Positions 2,937-32,254 of a stretch of 42,393 bases of DNA are shown in pieces. Position 1 is the stretch's first letter. The number at the start of each line of letters is the position of its first letter. This stretch comes from a virus. The stretch lies in the UHGV virus genome UHGV-0181047; one strand, written 5' to 3'. Made by a program: the position numbers and the translations under genes. The notes below the pieces were generated by a model that searched no databases, had not been told where the DNA came from, and saw only the letters and a program-made list of their open reading frames with translations.

Positions 2937-3120
2937 GGTGGAGTACAAAAAAGAGGACATTCGGCTGTTGACGGCATTGCTTAATGCAATGACTGTAACT
3001 GGGCTTGAAAATATAAAACTTATGGCACGGGCTGCAGATATCATTAATACTGGAGTTGTAAAAGAAGTTCCGGAAAAACCGAAGCATACTGGAAAGGAAG
3101 AACAGAATGAAACTGAGTGA
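2929..3120 (+). CDS. Small hypothetical protein (63 aa)
   Basis: ATG 2929 preceded by GGAGG; 4-bp-type overlap with upstream gene. Confidence 0.4.
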   Translation: MAKVEYKKEDIRLLTALLNAMTVTGLENIKLMARAADIINTGVVKEVPEKPKHTGKEEQNETE

Positions 3121-3877
3121 TTTATTTTATGCCATAGTAGGGTGGGTAAACTACCCGGATACATCTACACCGGTGGGAAAAACGAATCTGCGGCATATGG
3201 ATAATGGTATCCTGCAATGTGCTCAGTACATTTTGGGGCTATCTCAGGATAAATTGGAGGTATCAGAAGCAGCAAAATTCATTACAGGCTGGGAAGTGGA
3301 TACCAAGACCTGGATCGTAACGGTAACACATAAGGACGGCACAGTGGAGACGGTAGATTTCCCTATTGAGATGATGCCGACAAAGCTTGACCTTGATGAA
3401 GATGATAATCTCGTGCTGGTCCAGCAGGACGGAACCACAAAGAAGATTAGCTTCCAACGTTTTGTTTATAACGTTTCCAGTACAGCGACGGTTGCCATGA
3501 AGTTGGACGGGACAACCATATCAGCCAATGTAGTAGACGGATCCATTACAGCAAATAAGCTAGAGCCTACATTGCAGAAGACTTTACGGCAGTATATGCT
3601 TGATGCTCAGGCAGCAGCGCAAGAGGCAGAGGCATATAATAAATCATCTATAAGCTATGCTGTGGGTGGTACTGGCTCCAGAACAGGGGAAGATACTGAT
3701 AACAGCAAATATTATAGCGAAAAGGCAAAAGAAGAAGCTGAAAAGGCTGGATCATATGCAAATCTGATATTCCCAGAATTTTATCTGGATACATCAACAG
3801 GGCATTTGATTTGCAAACAAGGAAAAACAGTAACAGTTAAAGTTGAAAATGATCATGTATTAGTGGAGGTGGCATAG
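3107..3877 (+). CDS. Baseplate/tail-fibre protein (BppU-like position)
   Basis: 256 aa between Tal and RBP; NVVDGSITANKL fibre-like motif; Ala/Glu-rich coiled segment. Confidence 0.5.
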   Translation: MKLSDLFYAIVGWVNYPDTSTPVGKTNLRHMDNGILQCAQYILGLSQDKLEVSEAAKFITGWEVDTKTWIVTVTHKDGTVETVDFPIEMMPTKLDLDEDDNLVLVQQDGTTKKISFQRFVYNVSSTATVAMKLDGTTISANVVDGSITANKLEPTLQKTLRQYMLDAQAAAQEAEAYNKSSISYAVGGTGSRTGEDTDNSKYYSEKAKEEAEKAGSYANLIFPEFYLDTSTGHLICKQGKTVTVKVENDHVLVEVA

Positions 3878-4563
3878 TGGCAAGTACAACAGATCTTGGT
3901 AAGTGGATGATTACCAATGGCGGAGAATACAATCCGGAAACAGCATATGAACAACTTACAATGGTAATGTATGAAAACAGTACATATATTACCTTAAAGA
4001 CTGTACAAGGCATCACACCTACAGATGATCATGTTAATTATCAGCTGATGGCCAAAGGTTTTAACCCTACAGCCCTGGCATCAGTGCAGGCAGAGGATAC
4101 CAGCGGAGTGCTGGGAGAAGCAGGAGGCACCGTGTCAGCCCAGGATCTTGTAGACTGGGTAGTAGACCAGGCAGCCAATAAACTGCTCAAATTGACGGAC
4201 CTGGTAAGTGTACAGACCAATGATCCGACCAAGGGTGTATCTGCGGCTCTGGCCTATGCTATGGGCCAGAAGATTGATGAAGTAAATAGTAATTTAGATA
4301 ACCGTATAGGTGTTGGCGAAAAGTTTACATCAGGTACTCTATTAAATATCATAAAGCAAATGTCTGATGGTATACATATGGCATTGGTTAGTGAAACCGT
4401 TTCTGATATTCCTTTTTCAAATACAGAAAACTACATTATTGTATTTAAAGGCACCAGTTACGGTGATCCATATACCAGAATAATGGCATTTCCCATGCCA
4501 AAAAGTTCTGCTCCAAAATGGGGAATGGTCTCATGGGAGAGTAGTAAAATTGTTTGGATCTAA
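3877..4563 (+). CDS. Receptor-binding protein (228 aa) with exchangeable C-terminal head domain
   Basis: GTG 3877 overlapping upstream stop (taGTG), GGAGGTG RBS. Last 88 aa follow the NSNL junction (4285-4296) and are paralogous to the promoterless cassettes downstream. Confidence 0.6.
   Translation: MASTTDLGKWMITNGGEYNPETAYEQLTMVMYENSTYITLKTVQGITPTDDHVNYQLMAKGFNPTALASVQAEDTSGVLGEAGGTVSAQDLVDWVVDQAANKLLKLTDLVSVQTNDPTKGVSAALAYAMGQKIDEVNSNLDNRIGVGEKFTSGTLLNIIKQMSDGIHMALVSETVSDIPFSNTENYIIVFKGTSYGDPYTRIMAFPMPKSSAPKWGMVSWESSKIVWI
4285..4296 (+). repeat. Core site 1 AATAGTAATTTA (NSNL codons) at constant/variable junction of RBP gene
   Basis: Identical 12-mer recurs at 4877-4888 (inverted), 6638-6649 (inverted), 8543-8554 (direct) and degenerate at 9115-9127. 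Confidence 0.7.
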
Positions 4564-4573
4564 AATGATCATT

Positions 4574-4888
4574 TTACTTATGCGTCAACGTAAAATCTCT
4601 ATTGGATATAATGACGCATTCATCCCAAGTACCCATTCCAGTAATTGATAAACGCGCTACCTTTCCCACACTATTGCAAGCCACTTTATATGTAGATCGA
4701 TTTACAAGAGCAGTGACATTTCCAATATTATGAAAAGAATATAGTCCTCCATCAGCTATGACCAAACCGCAAAAATGACTGCTGTCTATTATGGATGTTG
4801 CAAATACTTGTGTGTATTCACCTTCATTGGCAATTTTTTTGATGTATACATTACTGATGCAGCTGCTAACGATTGCTAAATTACTATT
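4574..4888 (-). other. Promoterless RBP C-terminal cassette 2 (inverted), starts at core site, no start codon
   Basis: Minus-strand frame opens with NSNL at 4888-4877 and runs ~100 codons to stop at 4576-4574, tail-to-tail with the expressed RBP across palindrome TAAAATGATCATTTTA. Confidence 0.6.
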
Positions 4889-4921
4889 TACGTCAATTAA
4901 ACTAAGAAAGGAAAATAAAAG

Positions 4922-5332
4922 ATGAATGAAAAATTAAGATTAAAAAATGGGGATGAATTCCCCTTAGTAACTGATGGAGTTACAGAGTATAACGATACTC
5001 TCAAACTGACCTTTCAGTCAGACGAAAAATTAGAAGATTTAATCGCAGATTTTTCAAAAGACTCCAATACAGAGCAGATCAAGGTTATTAATGCAACCGG
5101 AGAAACATTATCAATCTATGACGGTTATACAGTTCTGGGTGATCCAAAAAGCATTAATGAAAATGCTGTTATCACAGCGGCAACATATGACGATGATGGG
5201 GATGTAAAGGCAGAGGCTGTTATAGGAAGAACAGCAACGTTTTCACTTTCAAAGCCAGGAATCACTGAGCAGGTAAAGCAGAACCGCGCAGATATTGATT
5301 TTTTAGCGGTTATGACAGGAAATGACTTATAG
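4922..5332 (+). CDS. Hypothetical protein (XkdW-like position)
   Basis: 136 aa ORF between tail-fibre module and the XkdX-like gene. Confidence 0.45.
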   Translation: MNEKLRLKNGDEFPLVTDGVTEYNDTLKLTFQSDEKLEDLIADFSKDSNTEQIKVINATGETLSIYDGYTVLGDPKSINENAVITAATYDDDGDVKAEAVIGRTATFSLSKPGITEQVKQNRADIDFLAVMTGNDL

Positions 5333-5343
5333 GAGGAAAAAGT

Positions 5344-5475
5344 ATGTTAAGTGTAAAAAATATGGCTGAAAAGTATTATCCTAAATACTGGACCAAAGAG
5401 CGGTTACGGGATTTAGTAGAAGCAAAAAAACTGACAGAAGCAGAGTACTATGAGATCACTGGAGAAAAGTATTAA
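5344..5475 (+). CDS. XkdX-family small phage protein (43 aa)
   Basis: AGGAGG RBS; ...KYWTKERLRDLVEAKKLTEAEYYEITGEKY resembles the XkdX consensus (W..E.L...V....IT..EY..ITG). Confidence 0.55.
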   Translation: MLSVKNMAEKYYPKYWTKERLRDLVEAKKLTEAEYYEITGEKY

Positions 5476-5492
5476 GTTGCACCGGTGCAACT
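5475..5492. repeat. Perfect 18-bp palindrome AGTTGCACCGGTGCAACT (parS-like)
   Basis: Also at 28871-28886 (16/18), 34363-34380 (17/18) and 16667-16683 (one core mismatch). Confidence 0.7.
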
Positions 5493-5508
5493 AAAAGGAG
5501 GACTTTTT

Positions 5509-6228
5509 GTGCGAGATATAACATTATGTCATCCACGGCTGCAGACTTTGGCCCAGGAGTTGATAAAAGTCTGCAACAAAAGTGGATTAAAGATAAAAAT
5601 CGGAGAAACATTTAGGACCAAAGAAGAGCAAGATGATTTGTACGCTCAGGGAAGAACCAAACCGGGAAATGTTGTAACTAATGCGCCAGGATCAAGTTAT
5701 AGCTCTTATCATCAATGGGGGACAGCATTTGATATTTACAGAGCAGACGGAAAAGGTGCGTACTATGACAGTGACGGGTTCTTTTCAAAAGCTGGTGCCA
5801 TAGGAGTAAAACTTGGCCTTGAATGGGGCGGAAACTGGCACAGCATTGTAGATAAGCCACATTTCCAACTTCCAGATTGGGGGAGTGGGACAGCGGGGAT
5901 AAAGAAAATGTATGCTACTCCAGAAGAGTTTATGAAGACGTGGGTCAAGCAGGAAGGCTGGATCCATGACAGTAATGGGTGGTGGTACTGCAACAAAGAT
6001 GGAAGTTACCCAAAAAACAAATGGGGACTGATAAATCATCACTGGTATCTTTTTAACAAAGATGGTTATGCATGCACCAGCTGGCATCGTTGGAATGGAA
6101 GTATTTGCGATCCAGAGGACGGATCTGGAGATTGGTATTATTTCGACCCTACACCCAATGGACAAACAGAATGTGCTTGCTGGAAAAGCAACGACAAGGG
6201 AGCATTAGGAGTGTGGTACGTTGAGTAA
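5509..6228 (+). CDS. Endolysin: peptidase M15 (VanY-like L-Ala-D-Glu / D,D-peptidase) plus cell-wall-binding repeats
   Basis: GTG 5509 after AAAGGAGGA. SYHQWGTAFDI (HxxxxxxD) and DKPHFQ zinc-ligand motifs. C-terminal GWWY/NGxWY choline-binding-type repeats. Confidence 0.8.
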   Translation: MRDITLCHPRLQTLAQELIKVCNKSGLKIKIGETFRTKEEQDDLYAQGRTKPGNVVTNAPGSSYSSYHQWGTAFDIYRADGKGAYYDSDGFFSKAGAIGVKLGLEWGGNWHSIVDKPHFQLPDWGSGTAGIKKMYATPEEFMKTWVKQEGWIHDSNGWWYCNKDGSYPKNKWGLINHHWYLFNKDGYACTSWHRWNGSICDPEDGSGDWYYFDPTPNGQTECACWKSNDKGALGVWYVE

Positions 6229-6370
6229 AAACAAAATGCCACTAACTCAATAGTAAATATGGTTATAACTAAAATAAGGAATAATCCAATAGGAACGCCT
6301 TATAAAATAGAAAGTCTTTCTATGGAATGGGATTCGACAAATTGGCAAAGTGTTGATTTAATATGATCAT

Positions 6371-6649
6371 TTAATCCCAAACGATTTGACTACTGTTCCA
6401 GAAGACCATTCCCCATTTTGGAATCGAGTGTTCAGCCATGGCAAATGCCATTATTCTGGTATATGGATCACCGTAACTGGTGCCTTTAAATACAATAATG
6501 TAGTTTTCTGTATTTGAAAAAGGAATACCAGAAACTTTTTTATCAACCAATGCCATATGTATACCATCAGACATTTGCTTTATGATACTTAATAACTCAC
6601 CTGATGTAAACTTTTCACTAACGCTTATACGATTGTTTAAATTACTATT
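6371..6649 (-). other. Promoterless RBP C-terminal cassette 3 (inverted), mosaic paralogue of expressed head domain
   Basis: Minus-strand frame from core site 6649-6638 (NSNL) to stop 6373-6371. Shares 43-bp and 84-bp blocks of 100% identity with 4347-4389 and 4408-4491. No start codon or RBS. Confidence 0.65.
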
Positions 6650-6672
6650 TCTTAAAATCGGAGGTAAAAAGA

Positions 6673-6861
6673 ATGAAAATTGCAGGAAAAGAATTCAAGG
6701 AAATTTTGGTCATTAAGGATAATGAAGAACTGGTTATAAGCATCACGGATGAGAATGTGATAGAAAAGGAAGGATATAAAGCGATATGTGTGCCGGTGAG
6801 TGATCAGCCTACCGGAAGTAAGTCACACGAAATATCACACGAATGTGATAAGACCGCATAA
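6673..6861 (+). CDS. Hypothetical small protein
   Basis: ATG with GGAGGT RBS, 62 aa. Confidence 0.4.
   Translation: MKIAGKEFKEILVIKDNEELVISITDENVIEKEGYKAICVPVSDQPTGSKSHEISHECDKTA
6820..6850 (+). repeat. Arm-type direct repeats (TCACACG x2) left of attP core
   Basis: aagtcacacgaaatatcacacg; same heptamer repeated 3x at 7020-7050. Confidence 0.45.
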
Positions 6862-6874
6862 ATACGTAATTTAT

Positions 6875-6900
6875 GGCGGGTTCGAATCCCGTCTCGCGCT
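6875..6900 (+). other. tRNA 3'-end fragment (T-arm + acceptor), probable attP core
   Basis: GCGGG-TTCGAAT-CCCGT T-arm followed by 7-nt acceptor strand CTCGCGC and discriminator. No D or anticodon arms upstream. Adjacent to integrase. Confidence 0.5.
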
Positions 6901-6904
6901 TCAA

Positions 6905-6953
6905 TAAAAAACCTTGTAAATACTGGATTTTCTAGCATTTACAAGGTTTTTTC
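6905..6953. terminator. Bidirectional hairpin (15-bp stem) with flanking A/T tracts
   Basis: aaaaaccttgtaaat...atttacaaggtttttt. Confidence 0.4.
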
Positions 6954-7017
6954 ATGCTTTCATAAAAATGAAAAGGACAGTATGCTTCCTTAAAAGGAAA
7001 GTTTTTTACGGTACCTA

Positions 7018-7050
7018 AGTCACACGAAAGTCACACGGAAATATCACACG
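7018..7050 (+). repeat. Arm-type direct repeats (TCACACG x3) right of attP core
   Basis: aagtcacacgaaagtcacacggaaatatcacacg, same orientation as left cluster. Confidence 0.45.
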
Positions 7051-8081
7051 GCAAAATGAGAGAAATGATCAAGGATTTTTTCATTCTGTCGGATCGCTTC
7101 TTCTGTGATCTGGTTGACGTAGACACGGCGCATCATGTAGTTTGAGGACCAGCCCCCACGCTTTTGTATATACAGATCCGGAACGCCCATAGCATGCATG
7201 ATTGAAGCTCCATAGTGCCGCAGATCATGAAAGCGGAAATGGGGAACACCGGATTTTATCAAAGCCTTCCGGAAACGATGAGAAAGTGCTGTAGGTGTAC
7301 AGGTAACCAGAGGACCGTGAAAAGCATGGATCTTTGTGATCACAAAATCCGGAAAAACAACTTTCCGGTAAGACTGGTAAGTCTTAGGTGCCTTGTCGAT
7401 CAACTGGTTGTTGCGGCCATAGACCAGGTTGTGCGAAATGCAGACTGTATTGCCCTGTACATCGGTTGTGGTCAAGGAACACACTTCCCCAAGCCGCAAA
7501 GGGCCAAAGGCCGCCAGAAGGATAGCAATCTCCAGCTCCGGATCATCCTTGACTGTCTGCAGAAGTTTTTTTATATCTGTGTCAGATGGGCAGTACAGAT
7601 CAGTTTGCACTTTTGCGGGAAGTGTGGCAGAGGCCAGTGAGTTTTTGGGGGCAAACATTGCCAGCGCAGGAGTGAAAAGCGCATAGATATTTGCGACTGT
7701 CTTAGGAGACCTGCCTTTAGATATGTCAGATATCCATAGCTGTATATCCTGATCCGTAAGGTCCGCCAGGGCGAAGTTTCCAAAAACTCCGGAAAAATGT
7801 GATTTGAGCAAAGAGTCATATCCTCGGAGAGTGGATCCGGACAAGACTCCTTCTTTTGTCTGGATGTATCTTTCAACAGCATCATGTACGGTCAGGGATG
7901 CTGCAGGTTTGGAAGACTGCAATTTCTTCTGGATCTTCCATTCATCACGGAGAGCTTTAGCTTCAGTCAGAGTGCTGGCGGTAAAGCTCTTGTAGTGCTT
8001 TTTCCCGGTTTCGTCCATGTAGTCAAAGGCCTGGACACGGACAGAGCCGGACGGTAAACGATTTTTCTTCTTTTTGGGCAT
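7044..8081 (-). CDS. int: Site-specific tyrosine integrase
   Basis: 345 aa; R...HDLRH...Y catalytic signature (RFHDLRHYGAS, RVYVNQ) with N-terminal SAM-like core-binding domain; next to attP-like region. Confidence 0.9.
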   Translation of the reverse strand: MPKKKKNRLPSGSVRVQAFDYMDETGKKHYKSFTASTLTEAKALRDEWKIQKKLQSSKPAASLTVHDAVERYIQTKEGVLSGSTLRGYDSLLKSHFSGVFGNFALADLTDQDIQLWISDISKGRSPKTVANIYALFTPALAMFAPKNSLASATLPAKVQTDLYCPSDTDIKKLLQTVKDDPELEIAILLAAFGPLRLGEVCSLTTTDVQGNTVCISHNLVYGRNNQLIDKAPKTYQSYRKVVFPDFVITKIHAFHGPLVTCTPTALSHRFRKALIKSGVPHFRFHDLRHYGASIMHAMGVPDLYIQKRGGWSSNYMMRRVYVNQITEEAIRQNEKILDHFSHFAV

Positions 8082-8212
8082 AATGTATCATCCTCCTGAA
8101 TAAAATTTATATGGGCCACGAAGTTGATAGGGCTTGCATGGCTGCTGGAAGAGTGATACAATATAAACGGTTGGAGTTTGATGTTGTATCACTCAACACA
8201 ATCTTACTAAAA

Positions 8213-8241
8213 GGGTTCCCTGCCGCAAGGGAACCTTTTTT
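8213..8241. terminator. Rho-independent terminator hairpin (both strands T-rich)
   Basis: gggttccctgccgcaagggaacc + tttttt. Confidence 0.5.
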
Positions 8242-8273
8242 ATTGTTTATTTACAAAATATAAAGAGTTTACC

Positions 8274-8302
8274 TTGAAAATTATGGGAAAATACTCTATA
8301 AT
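8274..8302 (+). promoter_or_regulatory. Consensus sigma-A promoter TTGAAA-N17-TATAAT followed by 7-bp inverted repeat
   Basis: Exact 17-nt spacing; aatctgc...gcagatt dyad immediately downstream of -10. Confidence 0.5.
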
Positions 8303-8399
8303 CTGCATTATATAGCAGATTATAGCGCAGAGGGGGTAGGATGTAAAGCGAAAGAATAAAGAAATTTAAAACCGATAGCTTATCGTAGGAGGAATGAAG

Positions 8400-8510
8400 A
8401 TGGATTATCGTGAAAAAATTCTTTACCTTCTGGATAAAACAAAGTCTGAAAAAATACTAAAGAAAGTTTATGATTTTTTGAAATACTTATACATATACGA
8501 AGAAGATTAG
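8400..8510 (+). CDS. Small ORF (36 aa) MDYREKILYLLDKTKSEKILKKVYDFLKYLYIYEED, moron-like
   Basis: AGGAGG RBS 7 nt upstream, own promoter and terminator; below the track's length cut-off. Confidence 0.4.
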   Translation: MDYREKILYLLDKTKSEKILKKVYDFLKYLYIYEED

Positions 8511-8535
8511 CCAGGCAATAAGCCTGGTTTTTTTA
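8509..8535 (+). terminator. Rho-independent terminator
   Basis: gccaggcaataagcctgg + ttttttt. Confidence 0.6.
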
Positions 8536-8542
8536 TGCCAAT

Positions 8543-8845
8543 AATAGTAATTTAATTTCTGTAAAGACGTTTGGAATTGAAGTTACAACCAGATCAACTA
8601 AGGATCCGACATCTGATTTATATATTGGATCATACAAACTTGTTGAATCTCCGTCATATCCCGAAGGAGAAAATATATTAGCAGTAATCCCATATAGTGC
8701 CAGATCGAAATCAGATGCAGGACGTTCAGCTATGGTCGCATATAGAACTAGTGATACACTTATTAGTGTAAATTCACCGAATCAGCCTAACGAGGTATTT
8801 GTTGTAAATATTGCAGTATTTTATTCATTTTCTAATAACAAATGA
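8543..8845 (+). other. Promoterless RBP C-terminal cassette 4 (direct orientation)
   Basis: Begins at core AATAGTAATTTA (NSNL), 100 codons, ends TGA inside palindrome AAATGATCATTT. No start codon. Sequence unrelated to cassettes 1-3. Confidence 0.6.
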
Positions 8846-9303
8846 TCATTTTGTAGCAAATTCTCGCCAGGCTGTCCATGTGTTTGTATCCTCATCTCTA
8901 TATCGTGTGTACAAAGACACTCCATTGGTTGCAATTAAGCATGAGTAATTTCCATTACCATTGTATGGTATATTAATAGCACACACCCAACCTGACGTAG
9001 GTGCATTTTGGGAATTAAACCCAGAATACCAACCTTGTATAGAAATATTATTCCAATCGTTAATATTACCATCTTGAAGATATAAAGGTTGAGGGATCTT
9101 ATCTTGTTTATAGCTTAATTACTATCTTGGACAATACTGTATAAAGGATGACTTCCTTCGGAAGATACTATGCAAAATGAGTAAAGTGTCCTACCAGCTG
9201 GTATATATTTGCTCAGATCAATGCTACCTGTTTTCCCAGTGGTAGAAACAACTTCTCTACCAAAGACTGCTTGTACAGGTAGTAGATCCGTAGTATAAAG
9301 CAA
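8846..9303 (-). pseudogene. Decayed RBP 3' copy / cassette 5 (inverted) with 1-nt deletion in core site
   Basis: Minus strand: ...KLLYTTDLLPVQA...VQDSN then GATAGTAATT-AAGC (core missing one T) shifts frame; downstream 88 codons (SYKQDKIPQPLYL...REFATK) end at TGA in the 8840-8851 palindrome. Confidence 0.5.
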
Positions 9304-9464
9304 TTTCTGTTCTAAATTTTAAAAAAAACACCATCCATTTGACCTTTTTATATTAAAAGTGTTACCGTCACCCGTTTCTTTGAAGTAAATTCGATCATTA
9401 AAATTTTTACATAAGAAAAGAGAACCGTTTTGTTGGCCTCACCAAAACGATTCTCTTTCTTTTT

Positions 9465-9827
9465 TTAGAGCTTCTGAAGTTCTTCCAGGATGTCCTTGAT
9501 CATCTGCCAGTACTTGGCATCCAGCTTAGCGAATTTGATCAGTGTAGATTTGATAAATTCGTCATCCCCGTCCAGGATAGAACTGATAATAGCCTGCGCA
9601 TCACTATTATCGTCCTGGAACATATCACCGGATCCGTAGACAAGCCAGTCATAGTTGACTTTGAATTTTCGGCAAATGTCTTTAAGGGTTCGATCAGATG
9701 GCTTTTTCTGTCCCATTTCAATTTGAGTAACAAAATTTCTGCTTAATTCTAGCTGATCTGCAAATTGTTGTTGCGTCAAAGAAAGGGCTTTCCGAAGCTC
9801 TTTGAATCGATATTTCAACCTACTCAC
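9465..9827 (-). CDS. CI-like phage repressor (XRE-family HTH)
   Basis: HTH LSLTQQQFADQLELSRNFVTQIEMGQ; divergent from the early operon; start codon (GTG 9827 or TTG 9818) uncertain. Confidence 0.8.
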   Translation of the reverse strand: MSRLKYRFKELRKALSLTQQQFADQLELSRNFVTQIEMGQKKPSDRTLKDICRKFKVNYDWLVYGSGDMFQDDNSDAQAIISSILDGDDEFIKSTLIKFAKLDAKYWQMIKDILEELQKL

Positions 9828-9839
9828 CTCCTCAAAATT

Positions 9840-9868
9840 ATATTACTGCAAAATGCTCACAAAGTCAA
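9840..9868 (-). promoter_or_regulatory. Leftward repressor-maintenance-type promoter TTGACT-N17-TAATAT
   Basis: On minus strand upstream of the repressor gene. Confidence 0.4.
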
Positions 9869-9917
9869 CACAAAATGCTTGACAATGCTCCTAAAGTGAG
9901 TTATTATATGCTCACAA
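9853..9917. promoter_or_regulatory. Candidate operator repeats ATGCTCACAA (9853-9862 and 9908-9917)
   Basis: Two direct 10-mer copies flanking or overlapping the divergent promoters. Confidence 0.35.
9879..9907 (+). promoter_or_regulatory. Rightward early promoter TTGACA-N17-TATTAT
   Basis: Perfect -35 with 17-nt spacer; overlapped by the ATGCTCACAA operator repeat. Confidence 0.55.
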
Positions 9918-11622: not shown

Positions 11623-11838
11623 ATGAGATTTGAGAATCATGAAAATGAAGATGGGATATCTTATATCGCAGTAAGAAGCGGCAAAAAAGGAACTGAGAAC
11701 TACAGAGAGACACGTTTAGATGCGCAGACGATAGAAAACATTATATGGGCTATCGAACTGGTAGCGGCGCTGCTGGCGGCATTAATAGCGATCATTGTGG
11801 GAGCGGTACTGTTGAAGACCATGCTTCCGCTGATATAA
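11623..11838 (+). CDS. Small membrane protein (C-terminal TM)
   Basis: GGAGGAAAA RBS; hydrophobic IWAIELVAALLAALIAIIVGAVLL. Confidence 0.4.
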   Translation: MRFENHENEDGISYIAVRSGKKGTENYRETRLDAQTIENIIWAIELVAALLAALIAIIVGAVLLKTMLPLI

Positions 11839-12760: not shown

Positions 12761-13194
12761 ATATCTATCTAGCCGGGTCAATACGCGGTCCGGCCCGTAA
12801 AAGCGGAGGCTATGTGTATGTGCTGGAATGCTTCCGGAACGGGAAGGCAGTCACGCTGCAGAAAGGGAAGTGGCTGGATGATACTACAGAGAACCAGCTT
12901 GCACTCCTGGGCCTGGCGGATGCATTGACCAGGCTGAACTGCCCGTGTAACCTGTCGATCTATACAGACTGCCAGCATATCATAAATGCGATGCAAAACC
13001 ACTGGGCCAGACAGTGGCAGAAAAATAACTGGGTAAATGCAAGGGGAAATCAAGTTAAGAATGCGGATCAGTGGAAGGAGGTACTTGAAAGGCTTGATCC
13101 ACATACCTACACCTTTTCCATGGAAAATCATGCGTATACAGAGTGGATGCGTACAGAGCTTGACCGGGAAAAGGAAAAACATAGAAAAAAATAA
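12748..13194 (+). CDS. RNase H-like (RNase HI fold) protein
   Basis: IYTDCQHI...W..QW.KNNWVNARGNQVKNADQWKEVLERL aligns with RNase HI; two catalytic carboxylates appear substituted by Ala. Confidence 0.55.
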   Translation: MQDVNIYLAGSIRGPARKSGGYVYVLECFRNGKAVTLQKGKWLDDTTENQLALLGLADALTRLNCPCNLSIYTDCQHIINAMQNHWARQWQKNNWVNARGNQVKNADQWKEVLERLDPHTYTFSMENHAYTEWMRTELDREKEKHRKK

Positions 13195-13214
13195 CCGAAA
13201 GAAGGAGAAAAGTT

Positions 13215-13700
13215 ATGTTTGAGAAATTTGGAGAATTTGACAGTGTAGAGGAGCTGAACGCAGCTGCAGAGGGCCAGAAGGAAGAGGGAGATATGGAGGC
13301 TTTAGAAGCTCTGGCAGTAGAAAACGGACTGGATCCGGAAGATGCAGAGGATTATATGAACGGAGATGTGGCACAGCTGGCTAATCCACGTCTGGCAGCC
13401 CTTGGAAAACTGAAAATAGAGGCAGAGCATATAAAATGTGCGGAAATCATGGGGGACTGGCTGGACTATATCAAGGATCAGTGTATAGAAAATGAAGAGA
13501 TGCAAAGAGCAGTCCGAAAGAAGGGAAAGAGCCTGGAGGGCTGTATAGCTGAAATTTTAAAGTGGTCTTTTGCCCATCAGCTCCCTGTTGACAGCCGTAT
13601 CACATCTGTTGCAGGTGTGAAGTCGAACCGAGTTACCATAGGGATCCCAGGAATGGCGACCGTAAAGAAGATCATCAACAAATATTACCTGGGAAGGTAG
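13215..13700 (+). CDS. PcfK-like protein
   Basis: KGKSLEGCIAEILKWSFAHQ resembles the PcfK-like core; immediately precedes the PcfJ-like ORF as in many Firmicutes phages. Confidence 0.45.
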   Translation: MFEKFGEFDSVEELNAAAEGQKEEGDMEALEALAVENGLDPEDAEDYMNGDVAQLANPRLAALGKLKIEAEHIKCAEIMGDWLDYIKDQCIENEEMQRAVRKKGKSLEGCIAEILKWSFAHQLPVDSRITSVAGVKSNRVTIGIPGMATVKKIINKYYLGR

Positions 13701-13709
13701 GCGCAGACC

Positions 13710-15833
13710 ATGAAAAAGAAAGCAATAGAGAGGATACCGTATCTTGGACTGGCACAGGTGATCTCCCAAAAGGCTGTGAAGTATGTGGGAGTAACTGCGG
13801 AGAAGGAGATTGCCGGTGAAAATCATCTTTTTGTTGAGGTGTACAAAAACAGGGCAGAGGCTGTAACGGTGCCTGTGGTGCGGATCGTGCTTACGGAAAA
13901 GGACTTTGGTACTTATTTTCCCGACCGGAAAGAATGGTCCGGGGTGAAGCTGGATGAGAGCAGCCTGCCGTGGGAAAAATCGGATGGACAGAGGCGGAAT
14001 TGGAGTGACTGGCAGAAGAAAGAAGAGAGAAATGTACTGCAAAGTCCGGAAGACCTGGAACGCCTGAAAAAACTTTATACGGCACCATATGGCGTATGGA
14101 ATGGACGGTGGTGGGAGTATATCTGTAAACAGCAAAACCACATTACATTTGAGCGGTGGAACAGGGCAGAGGAAAGGAAGCGCAAACGCCGCCAGGATGC
14201 TTTAAATGACCGGATCACTCATACACCGGAGCTTCCGGAAAAGAAGATCCTTAAAAGGGCGGATCTGCTGTACTTCGGAGGCCAGCATTACCTATATTAC
14301 AAAAAATATGGAAGCTGGGCACAGATTGCCTGTAGCAGCTGTGGCGGTGTAACAGAAAGCCGTTGGAAAAGCAGTATGTCCTATGAATCCCAGTTCCAGA
14401 GACATGTAGAAGAACCGATACAGGGAAAACGGGGAACATGTCCGCTGTGTGGCGTAAAGGGCCTGTATAAATGCCAGGGAAAGACAAAAGAGGATCACAG
14501 CCAGAAGATCTATATGTTTCTGGGGCAGAAGTATCGGGAAAAAGGTGTGGTTATCCGTTATCTTGAGGTGGAAAAGACCTACAAGCTTTATGAAGAATGT
14601 GGACAGAATGGCAATGAAATGACCGGTGCAGCAGAGGTATTAAGCGGAGTGGAGATTGCCAGGACATACTTTGAACCAGGGAAAGAACCGCAGACAGATT
14701 TTCATAAGCATAATCCTTATAAAGGGAAAGACTTCTGGGATGACTGCAACTTAGGCGGTAACTATAACATCCGTATAAAAGACGGCCATGTGATGCGTGA
14801 GACCTTTAAGGAATTACAAGGGACTATGTTTCAATACAGTGCCCTGGAAGAGTATTGCAGGCAGTTTAGCAAGGCAAAACCGATAGATTATCTGAAAAGA
14901 TACACAGAGACCCCGCAGCTTGAAATGCTGGTAAAGCTGGGACTGACAAAAATTGTGGATCAGCTTGTATGGGGTGGATTTGGCATTGTAAATGACATAG
15001 ATGCAAAACGCCCAGATGAGTTCCTGGGGATCCGTAAAGAACGGGTAAAACAGTTGATCAAAGCCAAAGGGGATACCACTCTTTTAAACATTATGCAGAT
15101 GGAAAAGCGCATGGGTGCTTCCTGGACCGATATACAGATCAGCCACATGGCAGAGGCTGGGCTGGATCACAGGGGAGAACTGGGAACTATGCTGCAGTAT
15201 ATGGGGATACAGCAGATCCTTAATCGCATTTCAAAGTATGCAGGTTGTGAGTATGACACAGGAAAACGATCATCAACAGAGCTTCTTCGAAGGACGGCTA
15301 TCACCTATATGGATTATCTGGGTATGAGACATACATTGGGCTATGACCTCACAAATACGGTCTATCAGCAGCCCAGGTCCCTGGAAGATGCCCACGCATT
15401 TGTGATAAGGGAAAGAGACAAGAAACAGAAGGAACTGCGTATACAGGAAGTTATGACAAAATTCCCGCAGATACATAACAACTACAGAAAGCTCCGGAGC
15501 AGATACCTGTATGAGGATGATGAGTACCTGATCCGGCCCGCAAGGTCTGCAGCGGAGATCGTGGAAGAGGGAAGAACATTGCATCACTGTGTAGGTGGTA
15601 ACGGGTATCTGGGCAAGCATAATGATGGAGAAAGCTATATCTTGATGCTTCGGGCTAAGAAAGACCCGGAAACACCTTATATCACGGTAGAGATTGAAGG
15701 GAACAGACCGCATATACTGCAGTGGTATGGGGCAAATGATAAAAAGCCAGACAAGGAACATATGCAGGAATGGCTTGACGGATATATTAATAGGCTGAAA
15801 GCGGGAACACAGGAGCTTAAAACAGCCATGTAG
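13710..15833 (+). CDS. PcfJ-like large protein
   Basis: 707 aa; C-terminal HHCVGGNGYLGKHNDGESYILMLR motif; Cys-pair zinc-ribbon segments; gene-order context. Confidence 0.5.
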   Translation: MKKKAIERIPYLGLAQVISQKAVKYVGVTAEKEIAGENHLFVEVYKNRAEAVTVPVVRIVLTEKDFGTYFPDRKEWSGVKLDESSLPWEKSDGQRRNWSDWQKKEERNVLQSPEDLERLKKLYTAPYGVWNGRWWEYICKQQNHITFERWNRAEERKRKRRQDALNDRITHTPELPEKKILKRADLLYFGGQHYLYYKKYGSWAQIACSSCGGVTESRWKSSMSYESQFQRHVEEPIQGKRGTCPLCGVKGLYKCQGKTKEDHSQKIYMFLGQKYREKGVVIRYLEVEKTYKLYEECGQNGNEMTGAAEVLSGVEIARTYFEPGKEPQTDFHKHNPYKGKDFWDDCNLGGNYNIRIKDGHVMRETFKELQGTMFQYSALEEYCRQFSKAKPIDYLKRYTETPQLEMLVKLGLTKIVDQLVWGGFGIVNDIDAKRPDEFLGIRKERVKQLIKAKGDTTLLNIMQMEKRMGASWTDIQISHMAEAGLDHRGELGTMLQYMGIQQILNRISKYAGCEYDTGKRSSTELLRRTAITYMDYLGMRHTLGYDLTNTVYQQPRSLEDAHAFVIRERDKKQKELRIQEVMTKFPQIHNNYRKLRSRYLYEDDEYLIRPARSAAEIVEEGRTLHHCVGGNGYLGKHNDGESYILMLRAKKDPETPYITVEIEGNRPHILQWYGANDKKPDKEHMQEWLDGYINRLKAGTQELKTAM

Positions 15834-22366: not shown

Positions 22367-23404
22367 ATGCACGAAGATATAAAGAAAGAGATTATCAACA
22401 ACGTAGTAGTAGCAATGTCTTGTTACATCAGTGATATGGATGTTTTAAATGTCCTGGAAAATATATTGAGTACCGAACTGATCCAGGTCAAAGTGGAGAA
22501 GACAAATTCTCTTCCATCGGAGTGGAAAAGCGAAACTGAAAAAAGAAATCAGTATCTCATCCAGCTTTTTATGATAAAAAAGCGAGGTCTCAGTAAAGAA
22601 ACGATACAAGGATATCTGAGGAGTGTGAAAAGACTGATGCTCATGGTGAGCAAGCCACTGGATCAGGTAGATACACTGGATATTGAATGGTATTTGGCAG
22701 CATATGAAAAGCGGCCAGGGCAGAGGAAAGAAAAGATAGAAAATTCCACATATAACAGCGAGAGGCGCTTTTTGTCAGCTTTTTATACCTGGATGAGGAA
22801 GGCAAAGCTGATAAGCGAAAATCCTGTAGAAGCTACAGAAGCTAAAAAAGTACCGCAAAAGCCTATAGATTACTTTGCCAGAGAAGAAATCATAAAGCTA
22901 AGAGATGCCTGCAGGAATGCCAGGGAAAGGGCAATGGTGGAAGTTTTTAGATCAACTGGTGCCAGAGTAGGAGAAATCGCTGATATACAGCTTGATCAGG
23001 TGGTATTTGATACTGGCAGCATACTGATATGCGGAGAAAAAGGCGGACGATATCGGACTTTGTATTTGGATGATGATGCACGGCATTACTATCAGATCTA
23101 CCAGCAAAGCAGGACAGACAACAGCCCATATCTGTTTACGCAGCTCAGAAAGCCATACGGAAAGTTAGGAAAGAGCTCTTACAGAAACATTTTAAAAACC
23201 ATAGGAAAAAGGGCGGGACTGACAGTAAGGGTATATCCGCATAAAATGAGAAAAACACTGGGCATGGACCTGAAAAACAGAGGGGTAGATATAGGCACGA
23301 TTCAGGAAGTACTTGGACATGCAAGCCCAGCAGTTACAAGTCTCTACTATGCTCAGTCAACCGAAAAGACTTTGAGGGATATAAGAGAAAGAGTTGCAGC
23401 ATAA
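22367..23404 (+). CDS. XerC/XerD-like tyrosine recombinase (second recombinase)
   Basis: 345 aa; ...RVGEIADIQL..., HKMRKTLG, LGHASPAVTSLYY catalytic region; own terminator upstream. Confidence 0.85.
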   Translation: MHEDIKKEIINNVVVAMSCYISDMDVLNVLENILSTELIQVKVEKTNSLPSEWKSETEKRNQYLIQLFMIKKRGLSKETIQGYLRSVKRLMLMVSKPLDQVDTLDIEWYLAAYEKRPGQRKEKIENSTYNSERRFLSAFYTWMRKAKLISENPVEATEAKKVPQKPIDYFAREEIIKLRDACRNARERAMVEVFRSTGARVGEIADIQLDQVVFDTGSILICGEKGGRYRTLYLDDDARHYYQIYQQSRTDNSPYLFTQLRKPYGKLGKSSYRNILKTIGKRAGLTVRVYPHKMRKTLGMDLKNRGVDIGTIQEVLGHASPAVTSLYYAQSTEKTLRDIRERVAA

Positions 23405-31928: not shown

Positions 31929-32181
31929 AATGTGCTATCAGTAAAAAAAGAAAAATATGATATGCTGACCATGTGGGGTGAGTGGACCCACAGATCATGG
32001 TATCCTCCTGACTTGATATGCGTCCTTAAAATAAACGGCTTCGGCCGGAGGTTGAAAAGCGGATGAGATTTCCGGCGCATATCCTGCAGCTGTTCCCCCT
32101 TTACAGCTGCATTTCTCCTCCTTTCGGTGTGCGAGAGCATAGCACGTAAAGAATATTGCTAACCGGCAAAATGCCGGTTAA

Positions 32182-32254
32182 GGACCGCTATCTCAGCTGG
32201 AAGAGAAGCCGCCTCATAAGCGGCGGGTCCTGGGTTCGAATCCCAGGTGGTCCA
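32182..32254 (+). tRNA. tRNA with CAU anticodon (elongator Met or Ile2 type)
   Basis: Hand-folded cloverleaf: acceptor GGACCGC/GTGGTCC (one G-U), D-stem TCTC/GAGA with GG loop, anticodon stem GCCGC/GCGGC, loop CTCATAA, T-arm CTGGG-TTCGAAT-CCCAG, discriminator A. Confidence 0.8.

What the first reader, a model, noticed from the sequence alone, without database searches (positions are those of the whole stretch)
4285..9127. Identical 12-bp core AATAGTAATTTA at the 5' edge of every cassette (two direct, two inverted, one degenerate)
Core copies lie at 4285-4296 (+, expressed gene), 4877-4888 (inverted), 6638-6649 (inverted), 8543-8554 (direct) and 9115-9127 (inverted, one T missing). In every case it is read in frame as N-S-N-L and is the first element of the variable segment. 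Flanking nucleotides diverge immediately outside the core in the unrelated cassettes. This points to nucleotide-level conservation, as in a crossover site, rather than protein constraint alone. Three inverted sites would permit inversion with site 1. The direct site 4 would need a prior inversion with site 5, as in multi-step Min/shufflon systems.
Basis: seen in the sequence. Interest (0 to 1): 0.8.

Follow-up and report, generated by a model that had tools for sequence, protein, structure and literature searches.

The report
Phage tail-fibre tip-swapping inversion sites
The repeated 12-base sequence is the crossover point of a DNA-flipping switch that lets a human-gut phage swap the receptor-binding tip of its tail fibre; the principle has been known since phages Mu and P1, but the layout is unusual and the enzyme is not yet identified.

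Summary
AATAGTAATTTA occurs exactly four times (4285+, 4877-, 6638-, 8543+), only at the 5' edge of promoterless, start-less tail-fibre C-terminal cassettes. A damaged fifth copy lies at 9115-9127.

The crossover-site reading is strongly supported from outside the window. In about 65 related gut-phage loci the same core sits at the constant/variable junction, with an inverted copy 470-880 nt downstream. At least five pairs of relatives carry the same two cassettes in opposite orientation, with the breakpoints inside the core. Core positions 6 and 7 change together at both sites of a module. Positions 1 and 12 stay with their flanks. The window's silent cassettes C2, C4 and C5 are expressed as fibre tips in other phages.

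The enzyme is not shown. The IS110 transposase is a passenger, absent from all relatives. The integrase differs among phages that share the core. A Xer-like tyrosine recombinase (22367-23404) is the only recombinase inherited with the system, and is the best candidate (about 0.45).

Use of the distal modules is inferred only. In this genome they are partly decayed, and no flipped form of this phage itself was found.

Closest known system: the Rin shufflon of Bifidobacterium prophages. I rate this a new variant of a known kind.

The parts
3877..4284 (+). Constant N-terminal part (136 aa) of the tail-fibre / receptor-binding protein gene (whole gene 3877-4563)
   Evidence: It lies downstream of the tape measure, Dit (DUF6711), a 675-aa Peptidase_S74 tail protein and a 256-aa protein. 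Weak PHROG tail-fibre hits. 458 protein clusters share this N-terminus with different C-termini. Among 119 of them the C-termini fall into 32 unrelated families, all joined at N-S-N-[L/I/F/M].
4285..4296 (+). S1: core AATAGTAATTTA in the expressed gene, at the constant/variable junction (N-S-N-L)
   Evidence: The homologous position carries the core in nearly all of the 65 related loci.
4285..4563 (+). C1: the currently expressed C-terminal cassette (92 codons plus stop)
   Evidence: Related tips are expressed elsewhere (P0132, P0165; 88-89% identity).
4561..4576 (.). Centre of module 1: perfect palindrome TAAAATGATCATTTTA between the two convergent stop codons
   Evidence: The same motif lies at the centres of modules 2 and 3. 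In close relatives the cassette units abut at TGA|TCA.
4574..4888 (-). C2: silent inverted cassette (104 codons), no start codon at its 5' edge
   Evidence: It is 100% identical (104/104 aa) to the expressed C-terminus of P0236. It is 97% identical to a distal + cassette of L089.
4877..4888 (-). S2: inverted core. With S1 it bounds the proximal invertible segment 4297-4876
   Evidence: S1 and S2 form a 20-nt inverted repeat with one mismatch (I6). Segments of this type are found flipped in relatives.
4922..6228 (+). Block between modules 1 and 2: ORF136, XkdX-like 43-aa ORF (5344-5475), M15 endolysin. Any S1 x S3 or S1 x S5 inversion would flip it
   Evidence: It is always co-oriented with the fibre gene in relatives.
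6229..6368 (+). Tentative decayed left half of module 2: AATAGTAA (8 of 12) at 6249, and a 45-codon open frame ending ..WQSVDLI* in the central palindrome
   Evidence: Weak: this is an 8-mer match in the expected place, not a demonstrated site.
6371..6649 (-). C3: silent inverted cassette, a paralogue of C1 (87% nt identity over 281 nt, no stop or frameshift, dN/dS about 0.5)
6638..6649 (-). S3: inverted core at the edge of C3
8543..8845 (+). S4 (8543-8554, direct core) and C4, a silent cassette of 100 codons. Left half of module 3, beyond attP and the integrase
   Evidence: C4-like tips are expressed in P0212 (84%) and P0232 (81%).
8846..9114 (-). C5: silent inverted cassette, intact as an ORF but out of frame with its damaged core
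   Evidence: P0180 carries a C5-like expressed tip (85% identity).
9115..9127 (-). S5*: damaged core GATAGTAATT-AAG (1-nt deletion plus A>G)
9128..9323 (-). C6: truncated cassette remnant (about 66 codons; shares EVVSTTG with cassette k23 of L092). Preceded by the half-site AATTTAGA, and its stop codon is created inside S5*
22367..23404 (+). Rec2: Xer-like tyrosine recombinase (345 aa), candidate invertase acting in trans. Assignment inferred, not shown
   Evidence: Pfam Phage_integrase 4.2e-28 plus SAM-like domain. Best NCBIfam and PDB matches are XerA/XerC/XerD. Orthologues (62-80% identity) lie on the same contigs as the fibre loci in all three sub-lineages.

Best explanation
The window is a complete circular genome of a temperate siphovirus-like gut phage; its relatives are found in Enterocloster (Lachnospiraceae) assemblies. 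Its distal tail-fibre gene (3877-4563) is built from a constant N-terminal part and an exchangeable receptor-binding tip of about 90-100 aa.

The 12-bp core AATAGTAATTTA lies in frame (N-S-N-L) exactly at the joint. It is the crossover site of a conservative site-specific inversion. Recombination between S1 (+) and the inverted S2 flips the 580-bp segment 4297-4876. The silent cassette C2 then becomes fused to the constant part, and C1 becomes the silent partner.

Strand exchange takes place inside ATAG[T/C][A/G]ATTT (core positions 2-11). The two partner sites must match there. The outermost bases stay with their flanks.

Two further modules of the same polarity (+ site, cassette, convergent cassette, - site) act as cassette stores. 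One lies after the lysis genes (C3/S3). The other lies beyond attP and the integrase (S4/C4, C5/S5*, C6). In principle two nested inversions can bring them to the expression site. The first pairs S1 with the far inverted site. The second flips the intervening block back between its own inverted sites. In this genome the stores are partly decayed.

The most likely enzyme is the phage's Xer-like tyrosine recombinase Rec2 (22367-23404), acting in trans from about 18-23 kb away.

Status of each step:
- Shown in relatives: inversion at the core, and expression of the alternative tips.
- Inferred: that this happens in this phage.
- Inferred, about 0.45: that Rec2 does it.
- Inferred, about 0.5: that the distal modules are reached by the same reaction.
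For: Core restricted to cassette edges and far above chance.

Cassettes lack start codons yet stay open for 92-104 codons.

The same architecture is found in about 65 related loci.

Flipped isoforms:
- L106 vs L145: left flank 100% identical over 1500 nt, right flank 95.8%, interior 95.4% identical only as reverse complement.
- L119 vs L117: interior 98.9% as reverse complement.
- L141 vs L150: interior 98.9% as reverse complement.
- L104 vs L130: interior 90% as reverse complement (all).
- L355 vs L361: interior 88.6% as reverse complement.

Breakpoint mapping: the TRKYY cassette follows GATAG.. when expressed in L093 and TATAG.. when silent in L099, so base 1 stays with the flank.

Across 42 non-redundant modules the two sites differ at position 1 in 15 modules and at position 12 in 8. 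Variants at positions 6 and 7 are shared by both sites in 11 and 5 modules, and discordant in 0 and 2.

The window's silent cassettes are expressed elsewhere: C2 = P0236 at 100%, C4 at 81-84%, C5 at 85%. Some alternative tips carry an H-type lectin domain.

Enzyme: the IS110 element is absent from all relatives. Integrases of relatives are at most 39% identical to the window's, or unrelated. Rec2 orthologues are on the same contig as the fibre locus in 9 + 3 IMG/VR contigs and one ENA scaffold, although TerL, replication module and integrase differ. No other recombinase domain was found in the ORFs scanned.

Distal modules: k07, k09 and k12 occur proximally in one genome and distally in another, each time in the opposite slot.
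Against: No flipped isoform of this very phage was found. Four other assemblies of it (L233-L236) all have C1 expressed. All evidence comes from consensus assemblies of related phages from different samples, not from reads within one population.

Rec2 is not adjacent to the cassettes. It belongs to a family that is also present in phages without an intact invertible module. L353 has lost its silent cassette. phiCs5676-1 has no intact inverted core. Its co-occurrence with the switch is confounded by shared ancestry of the tail module. It could instead be a Cre/Xer-type multimer resolvase.

No relative shows an inverted lysis block, so large S1 x distal-site inversions are unobserved.

S5* and the left site of module 2 are defective here.

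Partners reassort singly at a TGA|TCA centre. Core-to-core inversion alone does not explain this.
Confidence: 0.8

Rival explanations
1. The same inversion switch, but catalysed by something other than Rec2: a host-encoded invertase or Xer protein acting in trans, or the phage integrase.
For: No recombinase gene flanks the cassettes. Rec2 homologues persist in genomes where the module is lost or decayed. A Bifidobacterium prophage locus with an 8-bp inversion site also lacks a flanking recombinase, and a trans-acting invertase was proposed for it (PMC6109161).
Against: The integrase is unlikely. At least three or four integrase types, at most 39% identical to the window's, accompany the same core. 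The attP-like tRNA fragment bears no resemblance to the core. A host enzyme would have to be conserved across all hosts of three phage sub-lineages, whereas Rec2 travels with the system on every sufficiently long contig.
Confidence: 0.35
2. There is no programmed inversion. The core is a conserved linker at which related phages exchange fibre tips by homologous or illegitimate recombination during co-infection. The inverted cassettes are inert leftovers of such events.
For: The group is highly mosaic: TerL, integrase and replication modules are all swapped. The outer flanks of S2-type sites look like remnants of the end of a constant region (for example ctcaacta, agcaaaca). This suggests the cassettes arrived as pieces of whole fibre genes. 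Several cassettes in this window are decaying.
Against: Twelve identical bases are too few for RecA-type exchange. Five independent cassette pairs are found in both orientations with unchanged flanks and breakpoints inside the core. Silent cassettes stay open and the silent cores stay invariant across dozens of genomes. Core variants are shared by both sites of a module. Modules always have + then - polarity.
Confidence: 0.07
3. The IS110-family (Piv-like, bridge-RNA-guided) recombinase encoded across the window junction performs the inversion.
For: A full-length IS110-family gene (408 aa, NF033542, 2.7e-66) lies inside the tail module, about 3 kb upstream of the fibre gene. Piv of Moraxella is an invertase of this superfamily (my own knowledge).
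Against: The 1741-bp element is a simple insertion at TATTAAG^GAGTGG. It is absent from all 65 related loci, which nevertheless have the core, the modules and the flipped isoforms. There is no core-like sequence in or next to the element.
Confidence: 0.02
4. The repeat reflects only protein constraint on an N-S-N-L structural motif at a domain boundary.
For: The motif is translated in the expressed gene and is nearly invariant at the protein level (110 of 120 proteins).
Against: The codon spelling is identical in silent, untranslated copies, where chance gives about 0.009 per copy. Non-synonymous variants (NSDL) and synonymous variants (AGC) both spread to both sites of a module. Breakpoints of real inversions lie in the motif.
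Confidence: 0.02

Closest known systems
Rin shufflon of Bifidobacterium breve/longum prophages, also reported in Eggerthella lenta prophages (PMC6109161, PMC8778435)
   Same: A temperate phage of a Gram-positive gut bacterium. The receptor-binding protein has a constant N-terminal gene part and several promoterless C-terminal cassettes. A short asymmetric repeat (11 bp there, 12 bp here) precedes each cassette and serves as the proposed crossover site. The genome carries a Xer-like tyrosine recombinase distinct from the integrase. Inversions were inferred from comparison of related genomes.
   Different: The core sequence is unrelated (TTCCCTAACCC vs AATAGTAATTTA). In Rin the recombinase gene directly flanks a single compact cassette cluster. 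Here the nearest candidate is 18-23 kb away. The cassettes are split into two-cassette convergent modules separated by the lysis genes and by attP/integrase. The host phylum differs (Firmicutes/Lachnospiraceae vs Actinobacteria). Homology between Rec2 and Rin was not tested.
G segment/Gin of phage Mu, C segment/Cin of P1, Min multiple-inversion system of p15B (Din-family serine invertases)
   Same: The biological logic is the same. Inversion fuses alternative C-terminal tail-fibre segments to a constant N-terminal part. The crossover site lies inside the coding sequence at the constant/variable joint. The result is a switch of host range. p15B has several segments and needs multi-step paths.
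   Different: Those systems use a serine invertase encoded next to the segment. They have 26-bp dyad-symmetric sites with a 2-bp crossover, and a Fis-dependent enhancer. Here no serine recombinase was found in the ORFs scanned, the conserved site is 12 bp and asymmetric, and no tail-fibre assembly gene travels with each cassette.
R64 plasmid shufflon (Rci tyrosine recombinase, sfx sites, pilV)
   Same: Asymmetric short sites in which only the core and one side are conserved. Inversion rather than deletion, so far as can be seen. C-terminal cassettes of an adhesin-type protein. A tyrosine recombinase.
   Different: The sfx sites have 19 conserved bp. The segments are clustered next to rci. The target is a conjugative pilus adhesin, not a phage fibre.
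Second Bifidobacterium prophage inversion locus (8-bp CAGGGTTA, no flanking recombinase; PMC6109161)
   Same: A single roughly 500-bp invertible piece comprising the 3' end of a structural gene plus a small convergent segment. A very short crossover sequence. No recombinase gene next to it.
   Different: Different sequence, gene and host. No dispersed extra modules were described.

Membership tests
Phage tail-fibre inversion switches in general (functional class) | Constant N-terminal coding part followed by alternative C-terminal cassettes, at least one of them inverted and lacking its own start | tested here: met
   cassettes C2-C5 run 92-104 codons and have no start codon at their 5' edge.
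Phage tail-fibre inversion switches in general (functional class) | Both orientations of the segment exist in nature, with breakpoints at the inverted repeats | tested here: met
   Five pairs of related phages. Not observed for this phage itself.
Phage tail-fibre inversion switches in general (functional class) | Alternative cassettes are actually expressed as fibre tips | tested here: met
   C2, C4 and C5 are found fused to the constant part in other phages.
Din-family serine invertase systems (Gin/Cin/Pin/Min) | Serine (resolvase-type) invertase gene adjacent to the invertible segment | tested here: not met
   No resolvase domain in any ORF scanned (gene tables with Pfam). The neighbours are XkdX-like, endolysin and a tyrosine integrase.
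Din-family serine invertase systems (Gin/Cin/Pin/Min) | 26-bp dyad-symmetric crossover sites | tested here: not met
   Only 12 bp are conserved. Flanks differ among sites, and no dyad symmetry is shared across sites.
Rin-type shufflon | Short asymmetric repeat immediately upstream of every cassette and inside the expressed RBP gene | tested here: met
   (12 bp here; different sequence from rix).
Rin-type shufflon | Xer-like tyrosine invertase gene flanking the cassette cluster | tested here: not met
   A Xer-like gene exists (22367-23404) but lies 18-23 kb from the cassettes. The only flanking tyrosine recombinase is the integrase, which has an attP-like tRNA fragment beside it.
Rin-type shufflon | Recombinase orthologous to Rin | not tested
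   No Rin sequence was available. A tblastn of Rec2 against 50,697 phage records gave no Bifidobacterium hit at E<=1e-30.
Rin-type shufflon | All cassettes in one contiguous cluster | tested here: not met
   There are three modules. They are separated by the lysis genes and by attP/integrase. L089, L090 and L137 also have two separated modules.
R64-type shufflon (Rci/sfx) | 19-bp sfx repeats (7-bp spacer plus 12-bp arm) and an rci gene next to the segments | tested here: not met
   The conserved length is 12 bp, and no adjacent recombinase other than the integrase is present.
Piv/IS110-type invertase systems | The DEDD recombinase is conserved together with the invertible locus | tested here: not met
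   The IS110 gene is absent from 65 related loci that have the switch. Insertion boundaries were mapped.
Any tyrosine-recombinase site | Identity between partner sites is required in the strand-exchange (overlap) region, while the outer bases are free | tested here: met
   Positions 6 and 7 co-vary. Positions 1 and 12 vary independently. Positions 3-5, 8, 9 and 11 never vary, and position 2 only once. This is indirect and is also compatible with other conservative recombinases.
Any site-specific inversion system | Recombinase binding and cleavage at the core; both orientations within one clonal population | not testable with these tools
   Needs reads or experiments.

The most novel reading that the evidence does not exclude
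This would be a dispersed, multi-module tail-fibre shufflon of Lachnospiraceae gut phages, driven in trans by a Xer-like tyrosine recombinase encoded about 20 kb away. Silent two-cassette modules are separated from the expression site by the lysis cassette and by attP/integrase. A stored tip would therefore be brought into use by two nested inversions. In the integrated prophage, where module 3 ends up at the opposite end, this would mean flipping almost the whole prophage. A second, palindromic exchange point (AAATGA|TCATTT) at the centre of each module would reassort single cassettes. This would be the first tyrosine-invertase fibre switch described for Firmicutes phages. Its architecture differs from all clustered systems (Mu, P1, p15B, R64, Rin).
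Probability: 0.3. Interest if true: 0.7.

Novelty: new variant of a known kind. Interest (0 to 1): 0.55.

Why it matters
Receptor-binding tips decide which bacteria a phage can infect. This phage group is widespread in human-gut metagenomes. One conserved fibre stem is found joined to dozens of unrelated tips: 32 families among 119 proteins, and more than 450 protein clusters in each of two searches.

A 12-bp site that swaps tips in frame gives these phages rapid, reversible host-range variation against Lachnospiraceae, a major and poorly studied gut family. It also explains part of the apparent hypervariability of fibre genes, and the contig breaks there, in gut viromes.

Practically, the core marks a natural, tolerated splice point for engineering fibre tips. 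The system also offers a testable candidate for a trans-acting phage tyrosine invertase. None of this overturns current understanding: the principle has been known since Mu and P1.

Tried and rejected
1. A megablast of 3000-9900 against 50,697 phage records found nothing. A protein search with the fibre stem found only one distant hit.

2. An exact 16-mer scan of IMG/VR gave 87 single, unrelated chance hits. It was uninformative.

3. The fibre stem found no relative in GTDB representative genomes. The attP-like tRNA fragment had no exact match there. The host was therefore inferred only from Enterocloster and Murimonas annotations of homologues.

4. I considered the IS110/Piv-like recombinase as invertase because of its position in the tail module. 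I rejected it because it is an insertion absent from all relatives.

5. I considered the integrase and rejected it because it is swapped among relatives that share the core.

6. I looked for a flipped form of this very phage through contigs encoding its exact 256-aa neighbour protein. All four have C1 expressed. Two contigs simply break inside C1 because of the C1/C3 repeat.

7. AlphaFold2 on the fibre with a 37-sequence alignment gave mean pLDDT 40.8. The model is unusable, so I did no fold search. The predicted helix across the joint is not to be relied on.

8. Rfam found no RNA family at the locus.

9. I examined phiCs5676-1, the only cultured phage with a Rec2 homologue. It has a related joint sequence and a convergent ORF but no intact inverted core, and an IS200-like insertion next to it. 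It neither supports nor refutes Rec2.

10. The central palindrome AATGATCATT is not over-represented in the window as a whole (6 matches vs 3.5 expected with 1 mismatch). Only its placement at all three module centres is notable.

Full report
OBSERVATION

AATAGTAATTTA occurs exactly four times in the 42,393-bp window, at 4285 (+), 4877 (-), 6638 (-) and 8543 (+). Allowing one mismatch, 0.29 matches are expected and none of 100 shuffles reached four. The 10-mer ATAGTAATTT with one mismatch adds only 9116-9125 (-).

Each perfect copy reads N-S-N-L and opens 92-104 sense codons that end at a stop. None has a start codon near the core. The cassettes are:
- C1, 4285-4563 (+), part of the expressed 228-aa gene 3877-4563
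- C2, 4888->4574
- C3, 6649->6371
- C4, 8543-8845 (+)

The fifth site reads GATAGTAATT-AAG. It has a base change as well as the missing T. It reads D-S-N-stop, which leaves the otherwise intact C5 (9114->8846) out of frame. Upstream of it lies a truncated cassette, C6, with a half-site.

S1 and S2 share 20 nt with one mismatch. C1 and C3 are a 281-nt inverted repeat of 87% identity. With this phage's codon usage, NSNL would be spelled this way about 0.9% of the time. The conservation is therefore at the DNA level.

CONTEXT

The window is a complete circular phage genome. An IS110-family ORF reads seamlessly across the window ends, and an independent contig (L233) spans the junction.

The gene order is: tape measure, Dit (DUF6711), [IS110 insertion], a 675-aa Peptidase_S74 tail protein, a 256-aa protein, then the fibre gene. 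After the fibre gene come:
- module 1 (S1-C1> <C2-S2)
- ORF136, an XkdX-like ORF and an M15 endolysin
- module 2 (decayed left half, <C3-S3)
- ORF62
- an attP-like tRNA 3' fragment (6876-6904)
- a tyrosine integrase (7044-8081, -)
- module 3 (S4-C4> <C5-S5* <C6)
- a cI-like repressor

These assignments rest. All three module centres carry the palindrome AATGATCATT.

RELATIVES SHOW REAL INVERSION AT THE CORE

The fibre stem retrieved 21 IMG/VR loci and 44 metagenome loci, all from human gut. In almost all of them the core lies at the end of the stem, with an inverted copy 470-880 nt downstream. L089, L090 and L137 have a second module of the same + then - polarity.

Clustering the cassettes revealed the same pair in both orientations:
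- k04/k05: L096, L112, L119 and L120 vs L117
- k06/k02: L106, L107 and L141 vs L145 and L150
- k16/k17: L104 vs L130

At the nucleotide level, L106 and L145 are 100% identical over the 1500 nt to the left and 95.8% to the right. The 630-nt interior is 55% identical when read directly and 95.4% when reverse-complemented. L119/L117 and L141/L150 both reach 98.9% as reverse complement. A further pair, L355 vs L361 (k38/k39), behaves the same way. In each case the switch from collinear to inverted sequence happens within the core.

Finer mapping is possible. The TRKYY cassette is preceded by GATAG.. when expressed (L093) and by TATAG.. when silent (L099). Base 1 therefore belongs to the flank.

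Across 42 non-redundant modules the pattern is as follows:
- Position 1 differs between the two sites of a module in 15 modules.
- Position 12 differs in 8 modules.
- Variants at position 6 (T>C) are present at both sites in 11 modules and never discordant.
- Variants at position 7 (A>G) are present at both sites in 5 modules and discordant in 2.
- Positions 3-5, 8, 9 and 11 never vary. Position 2 differs in one module, and position 10 varies in a few.

A caveat applies: the position-6 cases are one lineage. Even so, this is the pattern expected if strand exchange, with heteroduplex formation, happens within ATAG[T/C][A/G]ATTT.

THE CASSETTES ARE REAL FIBRE TIPS

The stem matches 458 protein clusters whose N-termini are at least 90% identical to it among the 120 listed, but whose lengths differ. 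Among 119 of them the C-termini fall into 32 unrelated families, all joined at N-S-N-[L/I/F/M].

The window's silent cassettes are expressed elsewhere. C2 is 100% identical to the tip of P0236, C4 is 81-84% identical to P0212 and P0232, and C5 is 85% identical to P0180. Some tips carry an H-type lectin domain. C1 vs C3 gives dN/dS of about 0.5, with no stop or frameshift over 92 codons.

WHICH ENZYME?

The window encodes three recombinases.

(1) The IS110-family transposase. It is a 1741-bp insertion at TATTAAG^GAGTGG (41550-42393 plus 1-897). It is absent from all 65 related loci, where Dit is followed directly by the next tail gene. It is a passenger.

(2) The integrase next to the attP-like fragment. 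Relatives with the same core carry integrases that are at most 39% identical to it, or unrelated. It is unlikely to be the invertase.

(3) Rec2 (22367-23404), a Xer-like tyrosine recombinase, encoded just upstream of the terminase genes. Orthologues lie on the same contigs as the fibre loci in every sub-lineage:
- 65-80% identity in nine IMG/VR contigs.
- A 62%-identical clade (P0046) in contigs 115982, 113083 and 067708 of the AGC-core lineage.
- The same P0046 clade on the same ENA scaffold as fibre P0349.

The first scan missed the P0046 clade only because none of its peptide seeds match.

Meanwhile the other modules vary. Phages with a TerL 77-87% identical to the window's mostly lack Rec2 upstream of it. 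The replication modules differ too. Rec2 is thus the only recombinase co-inherited with the switch.

This remains circumstantial, for three reasons. Co-inheritance with the tail module may be plain ancestry. L353 keeps Rec2 although its silent cassette has been deleted, leaving a scar with the outer 8 nt of S2. phiCs5676-1 (Rec2 homologue at 53% identity) has no intact inverted core. A role as a Cre/Xer-type multimer resolvase cannot be excluded. I put Rec2 at about 0.45 and a host or other enzyme at about 0.35.

DISTAL MODULES

Cassettes k07, k09 and k12 are proximal in one genome and distal in another. Each time they sit in the opposite slot, + vs -. Exchange through inverted sites predicts this. 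A double crossover between direct repeats does not.

Because every module is + site ... - site, the block between two modules is itself bounded by inverted sites. An S1 x far-site inversion, followed by a flip-back of the intervening block, would swap the modules and restore the lysis genes. This is inference.

No relative shows the lysis block inverted: endolysin 29 of 29 and ORF136 19 of 19 are co-oriented with the fibre gene. In this window S5* and the left site of module 2 are defective. C3 could then be expressed only with the lysis genes inverted, and C4 probably cannot be reached.

Partners also reassort singly. In the close relatives, cassette units end in ..aaaTGA and abut at TGA|TCA. 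This points to a second exchange point that I cannot explain mechanistically.

No flipped copy of this particular phage was found.

COMPARISON WITH KNOWN SYSTEMS

Functionally this is the Mu G / P1 C / p15B Min principle. However, no serine invertase was found in the ORFs scanned, and there is no 26-bp symmetric site.

The closest described system is the Rin shufflon of Bifidobacterium prophages. It has 11-bp asymmetric rix sites before each RBP cassette and an armless XerD-like invertase (PMC6109161). It is also reported in Eggerthella prophages (PMC8778435).

The differences from Rin are an unrelated core sequence, no flanking recombinase, two-cassette convergent modules dispersed across the lysis and lysogeny regions, and a Firmicutes host. 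The same paper describes an 8-bp inversion locus without a neighbouring recombinase, which resembles module 1.

Text searches found no description of such a system in Lachnospiraceae phages.

VERDICT

The crossover-site interpretation is supported by independent comparative evidence. The multi-step use of the distal sites and the identity of the enzyme remain inferences.

Novelty: a new variant of a known kind. Interest: moderate (0.55).

Noticed in passing
window 41550-42393 and 1-897 (wraps the window junction), minus strand: A 1741-bp IS110-family (RNA-guided, bridge-RNA type) element is inserted at TATTAAG^GAGTGG. The site lies between the Dit stop codon and the ribosome-binding site of the next tail gene. 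The element is absent from 65 related loci but present in identical copies of this phage from three other samples. About 340 nt of 5' non-coding sequence (about 560-897) should hold its guide RNA. No Rfam family matched.
   Followed up: partly
window 4564-4573, 6362-6371, 8841-8850: Each cassette module has the palindrome (A)AATGATCATT(T) at its centre, between or overlapping the two convergent stop codons. In the close relatives every cassette unit ends in ..aaaTGA and two units abut at TGA|TCA. Cassette partners reassort singly. This looks like a second exchange point, with an unknown mechanism. More distant relatives lack it.
   Followed up: partly
window 4284-4564 and 6370-6650: C1 and C3 form a 281-nt inverted repeat (87% identity, with the central 85 nt identical) that brackets the lysis genes. 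Homologous recombination here would invert the lysis cassette. Two independent assemblies of the same phage (L235, L236) break inside C1, presumably because of this repeat.
   Followed up: partly
window 32015-32083 and 32182-32254: A RAGATH-21 RNA (73.7 bits, above the gathering score) and a tRNA-Met gene lie inside the head-gene region of the phage.
   Followed up: no
window 6876-6904: A 29-nt fragment looks like the 3' end of a tRNA (T-arm plus acceptor strand). It lies next to the integrase and is followed by a hairpin at 6906-6952, so it is presumably the attP core. It has no exact match in GTDB representative genomes, so the host tRNA and the host are unidentified.
   Followed up: partly
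L353 6690-6760 (ENA scaffold ERZ28601249 scaffold_227): In this relative the silent cassette has been deleted. The fibre stop is followed directly by TTATTTGCTATAtaaaaaac, a scar that keeps the outer 8 nt of the inverted core and its flank. The same scaffold still carries the Rec2 homologue P0046.
   Followed up: yes
L106, L107, L142 and L145, about position 11730 (L142: 2959): An orphan + oriented core copy with no cassette sits directly next to the 3' end of the integrase gene. It is conserved in four related genomes. It may be the relic of a lost distal module.
   Followed up: no
L341 (Clostridium phage phiCs5676-1, OR574845) 12878-14565: This cultured C. scindens phage has a Rec2 homologue (53% identity). 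Its tail protein has a joint CTAAATAGAAAATTGGAA that resembles the core. A convergent 104-aa ORF abuts it, and an IS200-like transposase lies next to that ORF. It may be a decayed relative of the switch.
   Followed up: partly
L355/L357/L359/L360 vs L356/L358: The same L100-type phage is assembled both as an integrated prophage and in its excised circular order. In the prophage form the endolysin is followed by host genes (GH3, a GGDEF protein, glutaminyl-tRNA synthetase). In the circular form the endolysin is followed by the integrase. This places attP about 250 nt after the endolysin in that lineage.
   Followed up: no
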